The translations under genes were made by a program, and so were the position numbers. The notes beneath the pieces are model-generated. The model did no database searches. It worked only from the letters and a program-made list of their open reading frames with translations, and was not told where the DNA came from. Below are positions 8,988-16,215 of a stretch of 40,766 bases of DNA, one piece after another (the first letter of the stretch is position 1; each line of letters starts with the position of its first letter). The stretch lies in the sequence record OZ035791.1; one strand, given 5' to 3'. The stretch comes from Kagunavirus LF7074P3.

Positions 8988-9400
8988 TGGGCTACTTTGA
9001 GGACTTAACAAAAGCGTTCGATGTTCCGCTGGTAGCCTTCGGAACCACCAACGGCATCAAAGTCGCGCTTGAAAATATCGACGCGCCGACGTCAACAGAT
9101 ACCCCGTATCTGGCAAGTTACATGTTACTTGCGGACACCGAGCAGGCGGATTTGTTCTTCACGGAACAACGCGCGGGCGTCTATCAGGTTGACATTAACT
9201 ACGCATCGGTGAAAGGTAGCGCGCCAATCAATAAAATGGCAGACTTACTTAACACAGCGTTTAAAGCAGGTAAGTCATTTTCACGTAACGACATCTGCGC
9301 CGAGGTTCAATCGGTTAGCCTGGGGCCGCTGATTGTAGAAAACGGATGGGCCAAAAGACCATTGTCAATTAACTTTATTGCATTCACCAAGAGGCTGTGA
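8984..9400 (+). CDS. hypothetical tail completion/terminator protein
   Basis: 138-aa ORF, overlapping starts/stops with neighbours, immediately upstream of major tail gene. Confidence 0.45.
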   Translation: MMGYFEDLTKAFDVPLVAFGTTNGIKVALENIDAPTSTDTPYLASYMLLADTEQADLFFTEQRAGVYQVDINYASVKGSAPINKMADLLNTAFKAGKSFSRNDICAEVQSVSLGPLIVENGWAKRPLSINFIAFTKRL

Positions 9401-10569
9401 ATATGGCTACAACTCCTTTTAAGGGCGCGAATACCGCGCAATTCTATGTGGCGGAAACTACCCCGGGCGTAACACCAAGTAACCCGGTATGGTCACCATT
9501 GCGCAACACAGGTGGCGTTCCAGCGGTAACCCGCGATGCGCTGACTTCCAACGAACTCGACGGCAGCCGTGAAACTACATCCATTCGCACCGGTAACAAG
9601 CAGGTTAGCGGGGAGTATGCCATCGAACTTAGCTCACGTAGCCAGGATGACTTCCTTGCGGGGGCGATGACTTCTACGTGGCAAGCTGGGGTAGAGATTA
9701 CGGGCGCCGAAATTACGGTCGCCCCCGCGGGTAAAACATTCACCCGCGCTGCCGGTAGCTTCATTACTGACGGTGTAGAAGTTGGTGACCTGATCGCGTT
9801 CACCGACTTAACCGGCGACAACGCAAAACCGTTTATCGTGACCGCGGTTTCTGCTCTTGTAGTAACAGGCGCGGGCATTCAGCACACGCTGACAGCAGAG
9901 ACAGTAACCACTGACGCAAAAACTGGCGACAAACTGGAAACCGGTAACGCATGTAAGACGTTCTCCATCCTGACGTGGTTCAAAGGCCAGTGCGGCAACC
10001 CTGACGCATACATGCTGACCAAAGGCGTGGAAATCTCCGGTTTCACCATTGAACAGGCCGTAAACGCGATGGTGACAGGCAGCTTCCCGTTCATCGGTCT
10101 AAGTCAGGAAATTCTTACCACGCCGCCAGCAGGTTCCGACTTCTCTCAGGTCACATTCACCGATGAGCCGTTCTCTTCTGTGGATGTGTCTGTGTTCGAC
10201 GGTTCTACACCGTTGCGTTGCGACACACTTACCATCACCAACGACAACGGCGCTTCCGCACAGTTTGAACTAGGAAACAGTAGCGTTGCGTTCGTGGAAC
10301 GTGGTCGCGCGGCTAACACCTTCTCCATCTCCGGTAAGCTGTACGACATGGCGATGATTCAGAAGTTTATCAACGAGCAACAGGTGGAGATCAACTCTAT
10401 TCTGGCGGGGGTAAACGGGGCTATGTCTTTCAGCCTGAAACGTGCAGAACTCACGGCAGTTACGCCAGAGATTGGTGGACCTGAGTCGATCACTCAGTCT
10501 ATTGAAGGGCAGGCTACTGGCAACCAGTACCAGTCGTCTATTGTTATCCAGCGTATCACCTACGCATAA
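9397..10569 (+). CDS. major tail protein (positional call)
   Basis: 390-aa ORF, last gene before strong terminator. Confidence 0.6.
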   Translation: MNMATTPFKGANTAQFYVAETTPGVTPSNPVWSPLRNTGGVPAVTRDALTSNELDGSRETTSIRTGNKQVSGEYAIELSSRSQDDFLAGAMTSTWQAGVEITGAEITVAPAGKTFTRAAGSFITDGVEVGDLIAFTDLTGDNAKPFIVTAVSALVVTGAGIQHTLTAETVTTDAKTGDKLETGNACKTFSILTWFKGQCGNPDAYMLTKGVEISGFTIEQAVNAMVTGSFPFIGLSQEILTTPPAGSDFSQVTFTDEPFSSVDVSVFDGSTPLRCDTLTITNDNGASAQFELGNSSVAFVERGRAANTFSISGKLYDMAMIQKFINEQQVEINSILAGVNGAMSFSLKRAELTAVTPEIGGPESITQSIEGQATGNQYQSSIVIQRITYA

Positions 10570-10597: not shown

Positions 10598-11152
10598 TTA
10601 CAAACCTAATTTTAAAGCAATGTCTATAACGTTCGATTTAACGTCACCTGGTAGGATGTAGGTGTCGTAATCTTTTACACCGCTAACATCATACAGATAA
10701 CCGCGGCTGTCCCCCTCAAACGTATAGCCTTCTCGGTGCAGGCGAACGATTCTTACATCATGACCCGCGGCGACGATAGGGGCCACTTCGCTGGCGAACC
10801 CGCCGTCGGACACTACAAAAACTTCGTTGCCGTCGGGCAAGTTTTCAGCAAGATACTTACCGAAATAATCACTACCAAGTACCGGTTTAATGAATTGCTC
10901 AGATATAGCAATCATGAACTGACGCCGCGACAAGCCATTAAGGAAGCCTTCTGGCTTTTCTTTCCGCGCTCGGTCGTCGTAGCCGTCGAGAAACTCGTGG
11001 TAAGCACCCGGGCCTAACGCTGCCAGAGCAATATTGAACATTGGATTCTTGAAACTGGTAGTTCCCTTCGCAAAGCCCATCTCTACCAGCGCCATAGCAA
11101 GTGTGTCTTTCCCGCAACCCGCAGGGCCATTAAGAATAATTACCATAGCCAT
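10598..11152 (-). CDS. P-loop nucleotide kinase (dNMP-kinase-like)
   Basis: 184-aa ORF with Walker A GPAGCGKDT at N-terminus (SGKDT resembles T4 gp1-type dNMP kinases); start overlaps upstream stop (TAATG). Confidence 0.55.
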   Translation of the reverse strand: MAMVIILNGPAGCGKDTLAMALVEMGFAKGTTSFKNPMFNIALAALGPGAYHEFLDGYDDRARKEKPEGFLNGLSRRQFMIAISEQFIKPVLGSDYFGKYLAENLPDGNEVFVVSDGGFASEVAPIVAAGHDVRIVRLHREGYTFEGDSRGYLYDVSGVKDYDTYILPGDVKSNVIDIALKLGL

Positions 11153-11637
11153 TACTTATCACTCCCGTGCGATTTTAAGTGTGTAGAGTTCCCGTTACAG
11201 TCGTATTCAGTAACCGCGTGAGTGGTTATACCGAGGCCACGGAAATGCTTTATTACCGCTGGCGAGTCGTCGAATGCGCACAAGATTCTTTCCAGCCCGA
11301 TAGTACGTAGCACCTCTTCCTTAATTACGATGTCTTTTCTGTTGTCGTGTTTGCTGCGCATGATTAACTGATAAAATTCGACGCGGTGGCGCTGCAACCA
11401 CATTCTGGTTTCTTTTTCCGCGTCATCACTACGGCCTGTTAAGATAATAACGGCATAGCGACGATTAAGGGCGTTACACAGTTCGATGTTATCTTTAATG
11501 GGTGCATCGTCTTTGCACGCCATGTTAAATGGTTTCCACGCCCAGGTTTCGCCGTAGTTATCTTTCGGCAGCAGGTGTAAACGATGAGCACCATCTGCCA
11601 ATGTCCCGTCTAAATCGAAAATCACAATATCTTTCAT
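11152..11637 (-). CDS. HAD-family phosphatase, T4 Pnk 3'-phosphatase-like
   Basis: 161-aa ORF; N-terminal DLDGTL (DxDGT nucleophile motif), later TGRSDD, RKDIVIKEEV and AFDDSP segments paralleling T4 polynucleotide kinase phosphatase domain (recall-based). Confidence 0.65.
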   Translation of the reverse strand: MKDIVIFDLDGTLADGAHRLHLLPKDNYGETWAWKPFNMACKDDAPIKDNIELCNALNRRYAVIILTGRSDDAEKETRMWLQRHRVEFYQLIMRSKHDNRKDIVIKEEVLRTIGLERILCAFDDSPAVIKHFRGLGITTHAVTEYDCNGNSTHLKSHGSDK

Positions 11638-12770
11638 CCAAGCATCTCCGGTGAAATAGTTAAACGTGCGACCTCGCCATATTCGGCGCTATAAGTAATT
11701 ACGTTTGCACTGCGGCCCGACATCCACCCACCGCGGGAGGCATATGCATCTTTAGCCGCGAGAGTGCGGTGTTGCTCAACAATCATGTTACGGCTTTCTA
11801 CAATCTTTTGGTGGTGCAGGTGACCCACGTGGGCGTAGCTGTAAACACTCTCTCCGAACGCTTTGCGGAACTTGGCGATCATAACCGGTTCGATAGCGTC
11901 GAATCGTGCTTTATGCCCATGATGGAAGAACAGCGTCGTTTTGCCGTGTTGCACCATCTTGTAAACATCCGGCGACGTATCGACGAACACACGCGGCTCA
12001 TTGTCGTACAGCGTACTAAACATCTCAGCTAACCAAATCATTCCGCTTTCGTCGTGGTTACCTTGCACGATAAGCAAGCGAACATTTTTATGTTTAACGA
12101 GAGCCATATCAATGACACGGCGGACCATACGAATCATGTAGCGTACAAGTTTCTGATAGCGGGTGTCAGCGTCAAGAACATGGCCACTTGCGGGTGTAAC
12201 GGCATCCAGACTATCGAAGTGCGCGAAGTCACCTAGCAGGTTAATAACTCCTGTTCCCGCATCTGGCGCTTTCTGAAACGCTGCGTCGAACCATCGAGAG
12301 AACAGGTCTTCTGCGATTTTCATATCCCAGTCGTCGCCGCTCTCGTCGGCCCATGCCAGCATACCGAGATGAAAATCAGATACAGTGTAAAGATTGAGTA
12401 GCTTGTCGTCACGTTTGGTGCGCACGGCTTTAACCGGCGCAACGGGGGTAATCTCTGACTTCATGCCCTCAATTACGGCTTTCATAGCCTCTAACTGTTT
12501 CTCTTTATCCGGCTCGGAAATCACCCACGTCATCACCTCTTCGCCATTAGCCTTTACGCAAGCGGATATTCTTTTAGCAGAGAACCCTTCCGCTATGCGT
12601 TTGGATATTACTGGGTCGTTCCCGTGACCTATGCCCTTCTTGGCTAATCGTGCTTTACGGATACGAATTACGCGGTCTGAGATGCCGTATTTACGGGCGA
12701 TGTCTATATTCCTCATCCCGGCGCTCAATTCTTCCTGTAACTGTTCGTCGGTTATTTTCTTCTGGGCCAT
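11634..12770 (-). CDS. metallophosphoesterase with N-terminal HTH domain
   Basis: Calcineurin-like motifs SDFH, GDFAHFD, GNHDE, HHGH, GHLHH; N-terminal HTH-like ...IDIARKYGISDRVIRIRK...; ATG 12770 chosen (RBS GAGGAAG); track ORF extends to 12875. Confidence 0.65.
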   Translation of the reverse strand: MAQKKITDEQLQEELSAGMRNIDIARKYGISDRVIRIRKARLAKKGIGHGNDPVISKRIAEGFSAKRISACVKANGEEVMTWVISEPDKEKQLEAMKAVIEGMKSEITPVAPVKAVRTKRDDKLLNLYTVSDFHLGMLAWADESGDDWDMKIAEDLFSRWFDAAFQKAPDAGTGVINLLGDFAHFDSLDAVTPASGHVLDADTRYQKLVRYMIRMVRRVIDMALVKHKNVRLLIVQGNHDESGMIWLAEMFSTLYDNEPRVFVDTSPDVYKMVQHGKTTLFFHHGHKARFDAIEPVMIAKFRKAFGESVYSYAHVGHLHHQKIVESRNMIVEQHRTLAAKDAYASRGGWMSGRSANVITYSAEYGEVARLTISPEMLG

Positions 12771-12808
12771 GCTTACTTCCTCGTGTTTAGGATTTGTCCT
12801 ATAGTAGC

Positions 12809-13000
12809 CTACTTCTCTTTCACGTTCGAGTTGCAAGCCCAGATTAAAATAAAGACCCACGGCAGCAGAACCCAACCAAGAAACAGATTAGCCATGAATA
12901 TCGCTAACTTCGCTTTATGGTTACGGAAGTACGCAACCAGGAAAGGCGCGAAATAAGCGAGCAGTGCAAACAGAATTAAGGAAACTGGTAAACTGGACAT
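12809..13000 (-). CDS. small 2-TM membrane protein, superinfection-immunity (Imm) family-like
   Basis: 63 aa from ATG 13000 (RBS AAGGGG); ...AYFRNHKAKLAIFMANLFLGWVLLPWVFILIWA... resembles Imm_superinfect-type small membrane proteins (recall-based). Confidence 0.45.
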   Translation of the reverse strand: MSSLPVSLILFALLAYFAPFLVAYFRNHKAKLAIFMANLFLGWVLLPWVFILIWACNSNVKEK

Positions 13001-13030
13001 TTTAAACCCCTTCATTGTTGGTGTAAGTGA

Positions 13031-13059
13031 ATAGTACCCTATTATATTGGGGTGTGCAA
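13031..13059 (-). promoter_or_regulatory. sigma70-like promoter TTGCAC-N17-TACTAT driving the minus-strand island
   Basis: Minus-strand reading cTTGCACaccccaatATAATAGGGTACTATTCAC; 32/34 identical to promoter at 34757-34790. Confidence 0.6.
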
Positions 13060-13167
13060 GTAATGTGATAGAATAAGTTTGCGCCTAGTGTCGCACACGA
13101 AAAGCGGGTGGTTCCCGTCTGGCGCATTTATCGTTAACCTGTAACCTCTTAACCAAAGGATTAAAGA

Positions 13168-13584
13168 ATGAAACTTTCTGATTTTTATTTCGAAGAGAAA
13201 GCACTGGTAGGCAAGAAGATGCCCATTCTGCTGCCAAACGGCGAAGACTCCGGTGAATGGCTTAACGTTGTAAGTCCCGATGCGGATGTCGCCGTTAAAG
13301 CGGGGCGTGCTTTCATTATTGCGTACCGTCGCGGGTTGGCGCGTTTCGAAGAACTGGAAAAAGCCGCCAAAGAATCCGGCGACTATACTGAATATAACCT
13401 GGCTATTAACGAACTGGCGGAAGACCTCAACCGGCAACTCGCGGCAGAAGTCGTAAACGGCTGGAGCTTTGATGAGCCTTTCTCTAAAGAAGCATTTAAC
13501 AAATTGCTGGACCAGTTCAAGGCATTAGGCACACAGGTAGCAGCGTTCCATAACGCTGAGCGCAAAGCATTACAGGAAAAGTAG
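13168..13584 (+). CDS. tail assembly chaperone (G-like)
   Basis: 138-aa acidic ORF immediately upstream of tape measure gene; RBS AGGA; ends at slippery G GAA AAG TAG. Confidence 0.55.
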   Translation: MKLSDFYFEEKALVGKKMPILLPNGEDSGEWLNVVSPDADVAVKAGRAFIIAYRRGLARFEELEKAAKESGDYTEYNLAINELAEDLNRQLAAEVVNGWSFDEPFSKEAFNKLLDQFKALGTQVAAFHNAERKALQEK

Positions 13585-13949
13585 ACGCGCTGTACAGGTT
13601 CGCCACCTATGAGTTTGTGGATAAGCATAAAATCAGAGAGTTTGATTCTATAGCCGACGGACACGAACAGGCGCTTATCGCGATGGGTGTAATCGATAAG
13701 AAAAAACGTGCAGCGCGACGGGGTGGGCCAGAATGCCCGCCCCTTTTTATATCCACCTTCGAGACGTACTGCGACATTAAGTTTACGCGACACGTGCGCG
13801 AGGACGCTGTAGTATTGTTCGCAAGAGAATCCGTTACGTGGCAAGACCTGAAAGCCTATCTCGATGTTACGCAAAAACAGCTTAGCCTGTTCGAGATAGA
13901 CATTATCATGGGCTTAGAAGCAATCTTTGAAGGTAGAAATCATGGCTGA
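13560..13949 (+). CDS. tail assembly chaperone -1 frameshift extension (T-like)
   Basis: -1 frame is open from 13560 to 13949 overlapping the end of 13168..13584; slippery heptamer G GAA AAG at 13575-13581 resembles lambda G-T site G GGA AAG. Confidence 0.4.
   Translation, partial: AQSITGKVDALYRFATYEFVDKHKIREFDSIADGHEQALIAMGVIDKKKRAARRGGPECPPLFISTFETYCDIKFTRHVREDAVVLFARESVTWQDLKAYLDVTQKQLSLFEIDIIMGLEAIFEGRNHG
13575..13581 (+). other. candidate -1 programmed frameshift site
   Basis: G GAA AAG immediately before stop TAG of the chaperone ORF. Confidence 0.4.
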
Positions 13950-16215
13950 TACCGCTAGCTTGATCGTACGAGTATCATCGACCGGCGTCGATAAAACCAC
14001 ATCACAACTGAACGGGCTTACCAAAGCCGCGGGGGCCGCCGCCGCTGCCGTTGTCAGTCTGGAAACTGCCAAACAGGTGTTCAGTGCGCTGGTGGACTCC
14101 CAGCGCAACTTCGATAAGCTGAACTCCGGCCTCATCACAATGACCGGGAGCGCTGAGAACGCGGCTAAGGCTTTCAGCGTCCTGCAACAGTTCGCAAAAG
14201 AAACCCCATATGGTCTTAACCAGGCGGTGGAAGGCTTTACTAAGCTGGTGGCCCTCGGCCTGAACCCAAGCAAAGAGGCGTTAATCTCCTACGGCAACAC
14301 CGCGGCGGCTATGGGTAAAGACCTTAATCAGATGATTGAGGCGGTTGCCGACGCCAGTACCTTTGAGTTTGAGCGACTGAAAGAGTTCGGTATCAAGTCT
14401 TCCCAACAGGCAGATACCGTTTCGTTCACGTTCCGCGGCGTCACCACCACGGTTAAAAAGAACTCCGAAGAGATTCAGAAATACCTGCTAAACATCGGCA
14501 ACACCGATTTCGCCGGGGCGATGGAGACGCGCTCTAAGACGTTAGACGGTCAGTTGTCGAGCCTGGCGGACTCCTTTGATGGCCTTGTACTTGCGGTAGC
14601 GCAATCCGGTTTCGGCGACGCCGTAGGTGAGCAAGCCGCGAAGGCAGAAGACGCTATTTCGGCACTCACCGACGCCATTGCGTCTAATGAGATAGCCGCC
14701 ACGCTCCAGGATTGGGTGACACTGTTCAATGAATCATTCAAGTTTATTTCTGATGCCTTAAACGACCTGGCATACGATACCGAGGACAAATCCGCGGATA
14801 TGTCAGACTCGCTGGGTACTATACCGGATGCTATCCGTGAATGGTTGCCTGACATCCAGCAGACGTTTCACGAGGTTATTGCGTGGTTCCAGCGCATTGA
14901 CGATTACGCCGTAGCGTTAGGTCAGACCCTCGCAGACGTGTTTGATCCGAGCAAAACGGCAGCACTCACATTTAAAAACCTGACCGCAGAAGCTGACGCC
15001 GCATACGCCGCCAGCATAAAACGCGCCGAGGCCGAATCACAGGCCATCACCAACAGGTCTAAGCAGCGTAAGAAAGAAATTGAGGAACAGCGCAAGCAGT
15101 ACAACGAGCGTAAGAAGCAAGAAATAGACTTAGCCAGCCTTGTTAATAAAAAGGGCGGAACTGGTGGGGCAGGAAATGCCAACGACAAAGACGCGAAAGC
15201 CGCCGCTAAGAAAGCGGAGCAATTGCGCAAACAAGCCCAGGATTACCTCGACACTTTGGCCCGTCAGAACAACGACGAGTTAAAGGCTATCGACGCGCAG
15301 GAACAGCAGAAACTGGCTAAGGCAAAAGAGTTCTACAGCCAGGGCGCGTTGTCCCTGAAAGAATATGAACAAGCTAAAACAGCTATCGTCCTCGAAGCCG
15401 GGCAAAAACGACAAGATGAACTGGATAAACGCCAGAAAGAAGCCCAGGAAAAGCAACAGAAAGGTGACGACTTCATGGCTCAGATTATGGGTCAGAACGC
15501 TACTGAGCTTGAGCTTCTCGACATCCAGGAACAGCAGAAACTGGCGGTAGCGGATAAGTACCGCGAGCAGGGTTTTATTAGCGAGAAGCAGTATCAGGCC
15601 GCTCTTAACGCCATCAACGAGCAATACGCAACCAAACGTGCCGATGCAACGGCAACGGCCTTTGGTAACATGGCCTCAAACATCGGGTCTGCGTTGGGTG
15701 AGGCTTCTGGCGCGTACAAGGCATTCGCTATCGTACAGGCAACTATCGCCACGTACACCGCAGCTATTGAGGCGTACAAGTCAACGGCAGCTATCCCTGT
15801 AGTTGGCCCGTTCCTGGCCCCTGTAGCCGCTGCCGCTGCCGTTGGTGCAGGTATGGCGCAGGTTTCCGCTATCCGGTCCGCGCGTGAACAGGGCGGACAG
15901 TTATCCGCAGGGCAGGCTTCCACCATCGCAGAACGCGGTAAACCAGAAGTTATTATGCCGGCTGGCGCATCTCGTGTTCGCACAGCACAGCAGATGAAAG
16001 AAATTATGGGGCAAAACGGGTCTTCTTCCGGCCCGTCTAATGTTACTATCGTAAACAACACGAGTTCTCAAATCGGCAACGTATCCACTGAGCAAGATGA
16101 CGAAGGCCGTTTGCGAATCATCATCGAGGAGCAGGTGGCTGCCTCTTTGCAGAATAGCAACAGCAAGATTAGCAAGGCCCGCAAAGCCACAAGAAATGCG
16201 CCGGGGTTTAAATAA
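13942..16215 (+). CDS. tail tape measure protein
   Basis: Longest tail-region ORF; coiled-coil-rich, Ala/Gln/Lys-rich, internal 20-bp exact direct repeat; ATG 13942 preferred over TTG 13927. Confidence 0.8.
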   Translation: MADTASLIVRVSSTGVDKTTSQLNGLTKAAGAAAAAVVSLETAKQVFSALVDSQRNFDKLNSGLITMTGSAENAAKAFSVLQQFAKETPYGLNQAVEGFTKLVALGLNPSKEALISYGNTAAAMGKDLNQMIEAVADASTFEFERLKEFGIKSSQQADTVSFTFRGVTTTVKKNSEEIQKYLLNIGNTDFAGAMETRSKTLDGQLSSLADSFDGLVLAVAQSGFGDAVGEQAAKAEDAISALTDAIASNEIAATLQDWVTLFNESFKFISDALNDLAYDTEDKSADMSDSLGTIPDAIREWLPDIQQTFHEVIAWFQRIDDYAVALGQTLADVFDPSKTAALTFKNLTAEADAAYAASIKRAEAESQAITNRSKQRKKEIEEQRKQYNERKKQEIDLASLVNKKGGTGGAGNANDKDAKAAAKKAEQLRKQAQDYLDTLARQNNDELKAIDAQEQQKLAKAKEFYSQGALSLKEYEQAKTAIVLEAGQKRQDELDKRQKEAQEKQQKGDDFMAQIMGQNATELELLDIQEQQKLAVADKYREQGFISEKQYQAALNAINEQYATKRADATATAFGNMASNIGSALGEASGAYKAFAIVQATIATYTAAIEAYKSTAAIPVVGPFLAPVAAAAAVGAGMAQVSAIRSAREQGGQLSAGQASTIAERGKPEVIMPAGASRVRTAQQMKEIMGQNGSSSGPSNVTIVNNTSSQIGNVSTEQDDEGRLRIIIEEQVAASLQNSNSKISKARKATRNAPGFK

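What the first reader, a model, noticed from the sequence alone, without database searches (positions are those of the whole stretch)
13560..13949. Candidate -1 programmed frameshift in the tail assembly chaperone at G GAA AAG
The chaperone ORF ends ...CAG GAA AAG TAG, while the -1 frame is open from 13560 to 13949 and overlaps the tape-measure start. The heptamer G GAA AAG (13575-13581) resembles the lambda G/GT slippery site G GGA AAG, and its position upstream of the tape-measure gene matches the conserved chaperone frameshift of tailed phages. The P-site re-pairing GAA to GGA is non-canonical.
Basis: partly seen in the sequence, partly recalled or inferred. Interest (0 to 1): 0.5.

Follow-up and report, generated by a model that had tools for sequence, protein, structure and literature searches.

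The report
Tail chaperone frameshift with long-range RNA helix
This is the expected and already annotated -1 ribosomal frameshift that makes the long form of a phage tail assembly chaperone; comparison with relatives adds a conserved long-range RNA helix starting just after the slip site, which I did not find described and which probably helps the ribosome slip.

Summary
The window is a K1G-like Kagunavirus. The frameshift itself is therefore already annotated, but I found no experimental test of it.

Comparison of 90 related loci (14 clades, G proteins down to about 45% identical) plus a Shewanella phage at 27% identity gives three results.
- The invariant core is NNA_AAG followed at once by a TAA or TAG stop. 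The full heptamer is not conserved.
- The reading frame of the conserved protein sequence switches exactly at this site, and T has no conserved start codon.
- The first T codons are constrained at synonymous sites because they form the 5' arm of a 10-13 bp long-range RNA helix.

The 5' arm always starts 3-5 nt after the heptamer. The 3' arm lies about 73, 124 or 197 nt downstream in different clades, with compensatory changes. In the window the arms are 13586-13595 and 13708-13717.

I read the helix as the missing 3' stimulator. That step is inferred, not shown.

The parts
13168..13584 (+). Gene G: tail assembly chaperone, 138 aa, frame 0, ending GAA AAG TAG
   Evidence: ORF list and translation. 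Pfam Phage_TAC_4 at 26.5 bits against a cutoff of 21.1. PHROG 15027 positions 1-138, E = 8e-71. Annotated as tail assembly chaperone in K1G RefSeq and fKuEco01.
13575..13581 (+). Slip site G_GAA_AAG, a near-cognate heptamer. Its invariant core is A_AAG at 13578-13581.
   Evidence: Sequence. In 90 related loci the last sense codon is always AAG preceded by A, whereas AAG is only 34% of the other Lys codons in G. The codon before AAG varies (GAA, GGA, GCA, GTA, AAA). Before GAA, the previous codon is CAG, CTG, TTG, TCG, GCG or ATG, and so always ends in G.
13582..13584 (+). TAG stop of G, directly 3' of the slip site. It forms most of the spacer between the slip site and the helix.
   Evidence: The stop (TAG 66, TAA 24, TGA 0) directly follows AAG in 90 of 90 loci and in Shewanella phage 3/49. 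The base after the stop is A (53) or C (10) in the 63 distinct G proteins.
13581..13949 (+). T segment: -1 frame from GTA (13581-13583) to TGA (13947-13949), 122 codons. It is expressed only as the C-terminal part of the 260-aa GT fusion (13168-13581 joined to 13581-13949).
   Evidence: Translation. Pfam Phage_TAC_18, E = 1e-18. Protein conservation starts at the first codon, V-x-A-L. No conserved start codon. The joined CDS is deposited as ADA82267.1, YP_009168804.1 and QNO11738.1.
13586..13595 (+). 5' arm (CGCGCTGTAC) of a long-range RNA helix. It starts 4 nt after the heptamer.
   Evidence: Pairs with 13708-13717 over 10 bp including one G.U. Duplex energy is -20.0 kcal/mol, reached by 0 of 300 arm shuffles. 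The helix is present in the MFE and centroid folds of 13582-13760 (z = -3.7). Synonymous sites are frozen: the Ala codon is GCG in 70 of 70 against 34% elsewhere, and the Leu codon is YTG in 70 of 70. RNAalifold predicts the helix unprompted on the class A alignment.
13708..13717 (+). 3' arm (GTGCAGCGCG) of the long-range helix
   Evidence: Compensatory changes in the class A alignment: pair 16/139 is C-G in 8 sequences and U-A in 8; pairs 19/136, 21/134 and 22/133 also change on both sides. 86% of cells are paired against 21-53% when the partner is slid by 1-3 columns.
13720..13752 (+). GC-rich hairpin (13720-13728 with 13735-13743) followed by TTTTTATAT. It resembles an intrinsic terminator, lies inside the T coding region and starts 2 nt after the 3' arm. 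Its role is uncertain.
   Evidence: Terminator scan. The hairpin plus T run is kept in many clades, with outer stem pairs changed on both sides. It is absent in the Jersey, SETP13/fPoEco01 and SP-031/phiEap-2 clades.
13942..16215 (+). Tape measure protein gene. Its ATG overlaps the GT stop (ATGGCTGA).
   Evidence: ORF list. Annotated in K1G and fKuEco01.

Best explanation

Most ribosomes read G to its TAG and release the 138-aa chaperone. A minority slip back one base on GAA_AAG, the last two sense codons. The single E. coli tRNA-Lys moves from AAG to AAA. tRNA-Glu can re-pair from GAA to GGA with one central G.U. The next codon read is GTA, and translation continues through the -1 frame to give the 260-aa GT protein (…ALQEK-VDALY…).

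By analogy with lambda gpG/gpGT, the G part would bind the tape measure protein and the T part would recruit the major tail protein. The slip frequency would set the G:GT ratio.

Three cis features are conserved with the slip site:
- A_AAG.
- A stop codon directly after it.
- A 10-13 bp long-range RNA helix whose 5' arm starts 3-5 nt after the heptamer.

I infer that the helix is the 3' stimulator. It would sit at the entrance of the mRNA channel while GAA_AAG occupies the P and A sites. It can persist because the T region is translated only by the few ribosomes that have shifted.

Shown: the ORF layout, homology, conservation, the codon-phase switch and the covariation of the helix. Inferred: that slippage occurs, how efficient it is, and that the helix and the stop codon stimulate it. 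Sub-estimates: frameshift real, about 0.9; helix is a real RNA structure, about 0.85; helix stimulates the frameshift, about 0.55.
For: Identity and prior annotation
- The 901 bases around the site are 100% identical to phage K1G and others.
- A joined CDS is annotated in GU196277, NC_027993 and MT711525.
- The exact fusion sequence is in the protein collection. Six alternative junctions are not.

Homology
- G matches Phage_TAC_4 and T matches Phage_TAC_18. Both halves map onto one fused PHROG profile.

Position of the shift
- The -1 frame overlap shrinks to 7 nt in two loci.
- A_AAG plus an adjacent stop is invariant in 90 loci from 14 clades and in a Shewanella phage with a G protein 27% identical.
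- AAG makes up only 34% of Lys codons elsewhere in G.

T is read as a fusion
- Third-position variability moves from frame 0 to frame -1 at the site.
- The -1 frame has no stop in 64 of 64 sequences, whereas frame 0 has a stop in 47 and frame +1 in 62.
- T is conserved from its first codon.

Helix
- The first T codons are frozen at synonymous sites.
- Each clade has a strong downstream complement, at -15 to -22 kcal/mol.
- RNAalifold finds the helix unprompted in both class-specific alignments, with 4 compensated pairs in each.
- 86-87% of cells are paired, against 16-53% when the partner is slid.
- The Shewanella phage has an unrelated 10-bp helix at the same 5' position.
- G.U pairs indicate plus-strand RNA.
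- The window region folds with z = -3.7.

Established knowledge
- A_AAG is the best -1 tetramer in E. coli (PMC4066793).
- NNA_AAG sites are used by IS1222 and B. subtilis cdd (PMC5009743).
- Mismatched -1 pairings are tolerated at an energetic cost (PMC6787027).
Against: - I found no experimental evidence for GT in any member of this phage group.
- G_GAA_AAG is not a canonical X_XXY_YYZ site. In E. coli reporter constructs, tetramer sites without a stimulator were barely above background (0.147% against 0.112%).
- The authors of one related genome state that there is no canonical slippery sequence (PMC6776780).
- Loops of about 60-180 nt are unusual for a bacterial stimulator. The helix could serve another purpose.
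- On its own, the window helix is only moderately unusual: 0.6% of random 14-nt arms in the window, and 1.3% of GC-matched arms, find as good a partner.
- Helix strength shows no obvious inverse relation to the quality of the heptamer.
Confidence: 0.85

Rival explanations
1. The frameshift is real, but the long-range helix does not stimulate it. The helix would serve another need of a 360-nt stretch of mRNA that few ribosomes translate. Candidates are blocking Rho loading (polarity), protecting the RNA from nucleases, or working with the adjacent terminator-like hairpin to set transcription into the tape-measure gene. Slippage would then depend only on A_AAG, the near-cognate P-site codon and the adjacent stop.
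For: - Lambda G/GT frameshifts without a known stimulator (my own knowledge, not retrieved here).
- The terminator-like hairpin at 13720-13752 lies 2 nt from the 3' arm and is itself conserved with covariation.
- The PaMx74 record annotates a terminator between its T ORF and tape-measure gene.
- Loops of 60-180 nt are atypical for bacterial stimulators.
- Helix energy does not track heptamer quality.
Against: - The 5' arm stays 3-5 nt after the heptamer in every clade, while the 3' arm has moved between about +73, +124 and +197. This is expected if the distance to the slip site matters. It is not expected for a general anti-Rho or stability element.
- Tetramer and hexamer sites need a stimulator to exceed background in E. 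coli reporters.
Confidence: 0.3
2. The product is the same but the slip step differs. tRNA-Lys alone slips from AAG to AAA in the P site while the A site holds the slowly decoded stop codon (a 'shifty stop'). This replaces tandem P/A-site slippage of tRNA-Glu and tRNA-Lys during translocation.
For: - The stop is directly adjacent in 90 of 90 loci and in Shewanella phage 3/49.
- The base after the stop is always A or C. From my own knowledge these are the weaker termination contexts in E. coli.
- Clades with C_GCA_AAG or A_GCA_AAG have no possible P-site re-pairing in the tandem model.
- In the SEA-PHAGES training set the slip site lies on average 26 nt from the stop (PMC10885494), so zero distance is not the general rule.
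Against: - Before GAA, GGA and GTA the preceding base is always G, and before AAA it is A, across six different preceding codons. This implies selection for re-pairing of the upstream tRNA.
- With AAG in the P site, the ribosome would already have unwound the first base pairs of the helix.
- The review states that a slow A site matters more for +1 than for -1 shifts (PMC5009743).
Confidence: 0.3
3. T is made on its own by internal initiation (for example at GTG 13617) or by re-initiation after termination at the G stop. No fusion protein exists. Many public records annotate it this way.
For: - Separate CDS features for T appear in Bas74, DUEC01, Jersey, SETP13, SP-031 and phiEap-2.
- The Shashou paper says there is no canonical slippery sequence.
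Against: - The annotated starts differ in every record: 6, 33, 90 and 168 nt after the G stop.
- The window's GTG is ATA, GTC, GTT or GTA in relatives.
- Protein conservation and frame -1 codon periodicity begin at the junction, upstream of any start codon.
- The fused PHROG and Pfam matches also argue against a separate protein.
Confidence: 0.04
4. The two-ORF layout is an artefact or comes from another process: a sequencing error, a pseudogene split by an indel, or transcriptional slippage on the A run.
For: None specific. A run of A bases is present.
Against: - The same layout occurs in 90 independent loci and hundreds of phage genomes.
- The run is only A4, and A3 in several clades. From my own knowledge this is far too short for RNA polymerase slippage.
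Confidence: 0.01

Closest known systems
Phage lambda gpG/gpGT (G_GGA_AAG) and the conserved tail-chaperone frameshift of tailed phages (Xu, Hendrix and Duda 2004; Levin et al. 1993; summarised in PMC5009743)
   Same: - Two overlapping ORFs lie just upstream of the tape-measure gene, and the second is in the -1 frame with no start of its own.
- The slip ends on A_AAG.
- The products are a short chaperone and a longer fusion.
- One close relative, RP180, carries the lambda heptamer itself.
   Different: - The heptamer is near-cognate (G_GAA_AAG) and varies among relatives.
- The stop codon follows at once. From my own knowledge, lambda G continues for several codons past its slip site.
- A conserved long-range helix follows the site, whereas lambda has no known stimulator.
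- The protein families differ (Phage_TAC_4 and Phage_TAC_18).
- The major tail gene is separated from G by a 2.4-kb module on the other strand.
NNA_AAG hexanucleotide / A_AAG tetranucleotide -1 sites: IS1222 G_CGA_AAG and B. subtilis cdd A_CGA_AAG (PMC5009743; PMC4066793)
   Same: - tRNA-Lys re-pairs from AAG to AAA.
- The codon before AAG is variable and need not re-pair.
- A_AAG is the most shift-prone tetramer in E. coli.
   Different: - Here the context is a phage tail gene.
- The site sits on the last two sense codons.
- It is followed by a long-range helix rather than a local structure.
E. coli dnaX (A_AAA_AAG, upstream SD-like element, stem-loop 6 nt downstream)
   Same: - The A-site slip is the same.
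- A 3' helix begins about 5-6 nt after the heptamer.
- Two clades here, and Shewanella phage 3/49, use A_AAA_AAG itself.
   Different: - No conserved SD-like element: one is present in only 5 of 63 sequences.
- The helix closes a loop of 60-180 nt rather than a compact hairpin.
Phage T7 gene 10A/10B frameshift, which needs a CCCC element in the transcription terminator more than 200 nt downstream (cited as unexplained in PMC5009743)
   Same: - A phage structural-gene -1 frameshift with a distant 3' element.
- A terminator-type hairpin rich in C lies near the distal element.
   Different: - The slip site is different (G_GUU_UUC, from my own knowledge).
- In T7 the pairing partner is not defined. 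Here both arms are defined by covariation.
Long-distance stimulators of plant RNA viruses (barley yellow dwarf virus and relatives; PMC5009743)
   Same: Base pairing to a distant segment is part of the 3' stimulator.
   Different: - In those viruses a local stem-loop next to the site pairs through a bulge with a loop 4 kb away.
- Here the segment next to the site is itself one strand of a simple helix, and the distances are 60-180 nt within one ORF.
Burkholderia phage KL1 gp18/gp19 (GGGAAAC immediately upstream of the TGA stop; PMC3483164)
   Same: A predicted tail-chaperone -1 site directly abutting the stop codon of the short form.
   Different: - KL1 has a canonical heptamer.
- I did not check it for a long-range helix.

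Membership tests
Tail assembly chaperone pair G/GT expressed by -1 frameshift (lambda type) | Two overlapping ORFs directly upstream of the tape-measure gene, the second in the -1 frame | tested here: met
   G is 13168-13584. The -1 frame is open from 13560 to 13949. The tape-measure ATG is at 13942. The same layout occurs in 90 of 90 related loci.
Tail assembly chaperone pair G/GT expressed by -1 frameshift (lambda type) | The downstream ORF has no start of its own and is read as an extension of the upstream ORF | tested here: met
   No conserved start codon. Codon-phase variability switches at the slip site, including the first 12 codons. The -1 frame has no stop in 64 of 64 sequences. T is conserved from its first codon.
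Tail assembly chaperone pair G/GT expressed by -1 frameshift (lambda type) | A shift-prone sequence within the overlap | tested here: met
   A_AAG is invariant. The overlap is only 7 nt in L048 and L050, which pins the site.
Tail assembly chaperone pair G/GT expressed by -1 frameshift (lambda type) | Sequence membership in tail assembly chaperone protein families | tested here: met
   Phage_TAC_4 at 26.5 bits (cutoff 21.1). Phage_TAC_18 at 67.7 bits (cutoff 27). PHROG 15027 covers both halves.
Tail assembly chaperone pair G/GT expressed by -1 frameshift (lambda type) | Both proteins are made, with the fusion at a low fixed ratio, and both are needed for tail assembly | not testable with these tools
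   I found no proteomic or genetic data for this phage group.
Canonical X_XXY_YYZ tandem-slippage heptamer | The first three bases are identical, so the P-site tRNA re-pairs fully | tested here: not met
   The window has G_GAA, so re-pairing to GGA needs a central G.U. Relatives have C_GCA and A_GCA, where no re-pairing is possible. Only RP180 (G_GGA_AAG) and the L072/L074 clade (A_AAA_AAG) are canonical.
Canonical X_XXY_YYZ tandem-slippage heptamer | Bases 4-6 are identical, so the A-site tRNA re-pairs | tested here: met
   A_AAG is at 13578-13581 and is invariant.
NNA_AAG hexanucleotide / A_AAG tetranucleotide -1 sites | In-frame NNA AAG, with the AAG-to-AAA shift available in a host that has a single tRNA-Lys(UUU) | tested here: met
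   GAA AAG is in frame. The window has no phage tRNA genes. The hosts are E. coli and relatives. That E. coli has a single tRNA-Lys comes from PMC5009743.
NNA_AAG hexanucleotide / A_AAG tetranucleotide -1 sites | A stimulatory element raises the shift above background | tested here: inconclusive
   No local hairpin and no conserved SD-like element. A conserved long-range helix starts 3-5 nt after the site. Whether it stimulates was not tested.
'Shifty stop' sites (stop codon in the A site promotes P-site slippage) | A stop codon directly 3' of the shift codon | tested here: met
   TAG or TAA directly follows AAG in 90 of 90 loci and in Shewanella phage 3/49.
'Shifty stop' sites (stop codon in the A site promotes P-site slippage) | Efficiency depends on the rate of termination or on release factor level | not testable with these tools
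   This needs reporter assays with altered stop codons, altered stop context or altered RF1 level.
Rfam frameshift or other RNA families | A match to a curated covariance model | tested here: not met
   No match up to E = 1 in 13450-13950 on either strand.

The most novel reading that the evidence does not exclude
Guernseyvirinae-type siphophages and more distant relatives would use a frameshift cassette not described for phage tail genes. It combines a minimal NNA_AAG slip site on the last two sense codons, the G stop codon as the spacer, and a 10-13 bp long-range RNA helix. The helix 5' arm is fixed next to the site, while its 3' arm has moved during evolution between three places in the T coding sequence (about +73, +124 and +197). 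Amino-acid pairs in the T protein have co-varied to keep the pairing (ALYE..FIQR, ALLK..FQQR, ALHK..FMQR).

The helix would set the G:GT ratio. It can exist because almost no ribosomes translate T. The adjacent terminator-like hairpin might additionally tie transcription of the tape-measure gene to the rare frameshifted ribosomes.
Probability: 0.5. Interest if true: 0.6.

Novelty: new variant of a known kind. Interest (0 to 1): 0.4.

Why it matters
The frameshift itself adds nothing new. It is the conserved tail-chaperone frameshift of tailed phages, and the fusion protein for this exact sequence is already in GenBank. Two points have value.

**Annotation.** Public records of this large phage group (525 records in the phage collection encode a relative of G) are inconsistent. 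Some join the two ORFs. Many call T a separate gene with an arbitrary start. One paper denies a slippery sequence. The comparative evidence here settles the site and gives a simple rule: NNA_AAG followed by TAR, then GTA.

**Mechanism.** A_AAG sites need a stimulator in E. coli, and none was known for tail-chaperone frameshifts of this kind. A covarying long-range helix anchored at the right spacing is a concrete candidate that a handful of reporter constructs can test. It is also a clear case of an RNA structure constraining the evolution of the protein it encodes. It may also bear on the unexplained long-range effect reported for the T7 gene 10 frameshift.

Tried and rejected
- **Local 3' hairpin or pseudoknot.** Folding 13575-13680 gave z = -0.17. 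RNAalifold on 116 nt from 21 loci gave no pairs. Both regions stopped short of the 3' arm.
- **RNAalifold on all clades together.** On 195 nt it found only a 3-bp stem, because the clades use two different 3' partners and the alignment has a 3-nt indel. The helices appeared once the classes were aligned separately.
- **Upstream SD-like stimulator.** Present in only 5 of 63 distinct sequences. The AGGA inside CAGGAAAAG is not conserved, since other clades have TCGGAAAAG and similar.
- **Other junction positions.** Six alternative fusion sequences are absent from the protein collection. No other re-pairing site exists in 13560-13581.
- **Independent start for T.** Rejected; see the rival explanations.
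- **Transcriptional slippage.** The A run is too short.
- **Rfam.** No match.
- **Literature.** Searches for experimental proof in Kagunavirus, Jerseyvirus or Guernseyvirinae, and for long-range stimulators of tail-chaperone frameshifts, found nothing relevant. Licznar et al. 2003, on NNA_AAG motifs, could not be retrieved, so its content is cited only through the review.
- **More distant relatives.** A scan for a similar helix in Serratia phage Tlacuache, Pseudomonas phage PaMx74 and Vibrio phage 1.117.O had a frame bug in the heptamer search and is not used.
- **Helix strength against heptamer quality.** No clear trend in helix energy.
Full report
**Observation**

- The chaperone ORF runs from 13168 to 13584 (138 aa) and ends CAG GAA AAG TAG.
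- In the -1 frame a TGA lies at 13557-13559. The frame is then open from 13560 to the TGA at 13947-13949.
- The heptamer G GAA AAG is at 13575-13581.
- The tape-measure ORF (13927-16215 in the mechanical list) has its ATG at 13942, overlapping the end of the -1 ORF as ATGGCTGA.
- A slip on the last two sense codons gives a 260-aa protein.

**What the locus is, and what is already public**

- The 901 bases around the site are 100% identical to Escherichia phage K1G, vB_EcoS_fKuEco01, fTaEco01, fTaEco03 and Kagunavirus LF7074P1. They are 95-99% identical to many other Kagunavirus genomes (Guernseyvirinae).
- In the original 2010 K1G record (GU196277) and its RefSeq copy, and in fKuEco01, the long form is already annotated as a CDS joined from two pieces: ORF22B, 'tail assembly chaperone'.
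- I built the seven fusion proteins that a -1 shift anywhere in the 22-nt overlap could give. Only …ALQEKVDALY… is in the protein collection, as ADA82267.1, YP_009168804.1, QNO11738.1 and QNO11960.1.
- The upstream part matches Pfam Phage_TAC_4 and the downstream part matches Phage_TAC_18 (E = 1e-18). The two halves map to positions 1-138 and 139-259 of one fused PHROG profile.
- Annotation is not uniform. Bas74, DUEC01, Jersey, SETP13, FSL SP-031 and phiEap-2 list the T part as a separate gene, with starts 6, 33, 90 or 168 nt after the G stop.
- The genome announcement of the related phage Shashou says there is 'no canonical slippery sequence' (PMC6776780).
- I found no experimental test of the frameshift in this phage group.

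**Comparative evidence for the site**

A tblastn search found relatives of G in 525 phage records, mostly Salmonella Jerseyvirus and Escherichia Kagunavirus. I collected 90 loci from annotated phages and IMG/VR contigs. They carry 63 distinct G proteins in 14 clusters at 75% identity, down to about 45% identity with the window.

- In all 90 loci the last sense codon of G is AAG, the base before it is A, and a stop follows at once (TAG 66, TAA 24).
- AAG makes up only 34% of the other Lys codons in these genes.
- The codon before AAG varies. The heptamers and their counts are:

| Heptamer | Loci |
|---|---|
| G_GAA_AAG | 68 |
| C_GCA_AAG | 9 |
| G_GTA_AAG | 5 |
| A_GCA_AAG | 4 |
| A_AAA_AAG | 2 |
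| G_GCA_AAG | 1 |
| G_GGA_AAG (RP180, 97% identical to the window here) | 1 |

- Before GAA the preceding codon is CAG, CTG, TTG, TCG, GCG or ATG. That is five different amino acids, always ending in G. This argues that re-pairing of the upstream tRNA to G-G-A is selected where it is possible.
- The length of the -1 frame overlap varies from 7 to 205 nt. In L048 and L050 it is exactly the heptamer, so the shift cannot happen anywhere else.
- Shewanella phage 3/49, whose G is only 27% identical, has GCA AAA AAG TAG followed by V-D-A-L-L-K-Y. It is also annotated as a joined CDS.

**Evidence that T is read as an extension of G**

- Upstream of the site the most variable positions are frame-0 third positions (mean entropy 1.51 against 1.07 and 0.91).
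- Downstream they are frame -1 third positions (1.34 against 0.68 and 0.69).
- The same holds for the first 12 codons after the junction (1.19 against 0.69 and 0.63). These lie before the window's first possible start codon, GTG 13617. That codon is ATA, GTC, GTT or GTA in relatives.
- The -1 frame has no stop in 64 of 64 distinct sequences. Frame 0 has one in 47 and frame +1 in 62.
- The T protein is conserved over its whole length, beginning V-x-A-L.

**Search for stimulators**

The first checks found nothing.
- A local fold of 13575-13680 was unremarkable (z = -0.17).
- RNAalifold on the first 116 nt of 21 loci gave no pairs.
- SD-like motifs upstream occur in only 5 of 63 sequences.

One oddity remained. 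The third T codon (Ala) is GCG in 70 of 70 sequences, although GCG is 34% of Ala codons elsewhere in these genes. The fourth (Leu) is CTG or TTG in 70 of 70. Looking for a partner of this frozen string showed that every clade has a perfect or near-perfect 10-13 bp complement further down the T ORF. There are two classes.

*Class A* comprises the K1G clade including the window, the fPoEco01/SETP13 clade, and L027, L031, L054 and L091.
- The partner lies about 124 nt after the heptamer.
- In the window, 13586-13595 (CGCGCUGUAC) pairs with 13708-13717 (GUGCAGCGCG). The duplex energy is -20.0 kcal/mol, reached by 0 of 300 arm shuffles.
- Only 0.6% of random 14-nt arms in the window do as well, and 1.3% of GC-matched arms.
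- The helix appears in both the MFE and centroid folds of 13582-13760 (-61.5 kcal/mol, z = -3.7).
- The SETP13-type clade has GCGUUG(CU or UUUC) paired with (AG or GAAA)CAACGC, which are compensatory changes.
- On the 16-sequence class A alignment, RNAalifold predicts the helix unprompted. Pair 16/139 is C-G in 8 and U-A in 8, and three more pairs change on both sides.
- 86% of cells pair, against 21-53% with the partner slid by 1-3 columns. The covariation score is 0.311 against 0.173 in shuffles, reached by 0 of 500.

*Class B* comprises K1H, Jersey, FSL SP-031, phiEap-2 and eight further clades.
- The partner lies about 197 nt after the heptamer: AGCGCUGUAUGAA with UUCAUACAGCGC.
- Variants are GCGCUGUUGAAA/UUUCAACAGCGC (L038) and GCGCUGCAUAAA/UUUAUGCAGCG (L072).
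- The encoded amino acids therefore co-vary: ALYE..FIQR, ALLK..FQQR, ALHK..FMQR.
- RNAalifold again finds this 11-bp helix, and it is the only consensus structure in 232 columns.
- 87% of cells pair, against 16-48% when slid. Four pairs are compensated.

Further points on the helix.
- The L047 clade has both partners.
- Shewanella phage 3/49 has an unrelated helix, AUGCCCUGCU with AGCAGGGCAU. Its 5' arm starts right after the stop and its 3' arm lies 73 nt after the heptamer (-19.1 kcal/mol, reached by 0 of 300 shuffles).
- G.U pairs occur in both classes, so the structure belongs to the plus-strand RNA.
- Rfam has no matching family.
- The shuffle counts are not probabilities, because the sequences are related. 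The slid-partner controls, the three independent partner positions and the completely different Shewanella helix do not have that weakness.

**Mechanism**

*Shown:* the layout, the invariant A_AAG-stop, the frame switch and the helix.

*From established knowledge:*
- E. coli has a single tRNA-Lys (mnm5s2UUU) that pairs less well with AAG than with AAA. A_AAG is the most shift-prone tetramer in E. coli.
- In E. coli reporter constructs, tetramers without a stimulator were barely above background (0.147% against 0.112%). A_AAG reached 5.6% with a pseudoknot (PMC4066793).
- NNA_AAG sites are used by IS1222 and occur in B. subtilis cdd. Their efficiency depends on the tRNA that reads the first codon (PMC5009743).
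- Mismatched pairings in the -1 frame cost free energy, which is partly repaid by the favourable change from G.S to A.S at the wobble position (S = mnm5s2U) (PMC6787027).

*Inferred:*
[quoted passage not shown] That is at the entrance of the mRNA channel, where known stimulators act.
- Resistance to unwinding during translocation would favour a one-base backward slip of tRNA-Lys, and of tRNA-Glu where G_GA allows it.
- Because 0-frame ribosomes leave at the TAG, the T region is almost free of ribosomes. A helix spanning 110-180 nt can therefore form and re-form.
- The phage carries no tRNA genes, so host tRNAs are used.
- Whether the adjacent stop also contributes, through P-site slippage while the A site waits for a release factor, cannot be decided from sequence. 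Its absolute conservation and the A or C that always follows it are suggestive.
- By analogy with lambda, the slip frequency would fix the G:GT ratio needed for tail assembly (PMC5009743).

**Rival readings**

- Independent translation of T is very unlikely, for the reasons given above.
- Transcriptional slippage and artefact are excluded by the short A run and by the recurrence of the layout.
- The serious open question is the role of the helix. It could instead protect an untranslated stretch from Rho or nucleases, or act together with the terminator-like hairpin that follows it.
- Against that, the 5' arm is held at a fixed distance from the slip site while the 3' arm has moved twice.

**Comparison with known systems**

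- By function and family this is a lambda-type G/GT tail chaperone frameshift.
- By slip site it belongs with the NNA_AAG / A_AAG class, not with canonical X_XXY_YYZ heptamers. The XXX criterion is tested here and not met in the window and most relatives.
- A heptamer abutting the stop has been predicted for Burkholderia phage KL1 (PMC3483164).
- In the SEA-PHAGES training set the slip site lies on average 26 nt from the stop (PMC10885494).
- Long-distance stimulators are known in plant RNA viruses. An unexplained effect of a terminator more than 200 nt downstream is reported for T7 gene 10 (PMC5009743).
- I found no description of a long-range helix for a tail chaperone frameshift in the searchable library.

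**Verdict**

- New here are the definition of the conserved core (A_AAG plus stop) and the covarying long-range helix at stimulator spacing. These make the locus a variant of a known kind, not a new kind.
- Interest is moderate. It rests almost entirely on the helix, whose function remains to be tested.

Noticed in passing
window 13720-13752 (+): A terminator-like element lies inside the T coding region: GGGGTGGGC-CAGAAT-GCCCGCCCC (9 pairs, 8 G-C) followed by TTTTTATAT. It starts 2 nt after the 3' arm of the long-range helix and about 200 nt before the tape-measure ATG. Many divergent clades keep a GC stem plus a T run here, with outer pairs changed on both sides (ACGGGGC/GCCCCGT, AAAGGGGC/GCCCCTTT, GAGGGGC/GCCCCTC). 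65% of cells pair against 54% in shuffles, reached by 0 of 500. It is absent in the Jersey, SETP13/fPoEco01 and SP-031/phiEap-2 clades. It could be a partial terminator that lowers tape-measure transcription relative to G.
   Followed up: partly
window 10598-13015 (-), between the major tail gene (9397-10569, +) and G (13168, +): The usual order of major tail protein, chaperone and tape measure is interrupted by a module on the opposite strand. K1G annotates it as ATP-binding protein, polynucleotide kinase, DNA repair exonuclease/metallophosphoesterase and superinfection immunity protein. G is therefore the first gene of its transcription unit. The divergent intergenic region 13016-13167 has a good minus-strand promoter-like site (13069 to 13041, 10 of 12 matches), but no plus-strand site passed the scan.
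   Followed up: no
L003 (Bas74), L005 (DUEC01), L007 (Jersey), L009 (FSL SP-031), L010 (phiEap-2), L011 (SETP13): Public records of close and distant relatives annotate the T part as a free-standing gene, with starts that differ from record to record. The same A_AAG-stop site and helix are present in all of them. These look like annotation errors that could be fixed by rule.
   Followed up: partly
L019 (IMG/VR copy of Raoultella phage RP180), heptamer at 1608-1614: A natural single-base variant (GAA to GGA, Glu to Gly in the second-last residue of G) turns the site into the canonical lambda heptamer G_GGA_AAG, in a phage 97% identical to the window in this region.
   Followed up: no
L092 (Shewanella phage 3/49) 1335-1430: A Baltic sea-ice phage with a G protein only 27% identical has the same design: A_AAA_AAG, a TAG, then a 10-bp helix (AUGCCCUGCU with AGCAGGGCAU). 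The helix has a different sequence and a partner only about 73 nt away.
   Followed up: partly
L047-L053 clade, about 129 and about 198 nt after the heptamer: This clade (heptamer C_GCA_AAG, with no P-site re-pairing possible) carries both alternative 3' partners for the same 5' arm. It may be an evolutionary intermediate or a switch between two folds.
   Followed up: no
window 1-40766: ARAGORN finds no tRNA or tmRNA genes anywhere in the window. The string AAAGTAR occurs at four other plus-strand positions (3913, 4601, 16419, 17457). I did not check their reading frames.
   Followed up: no
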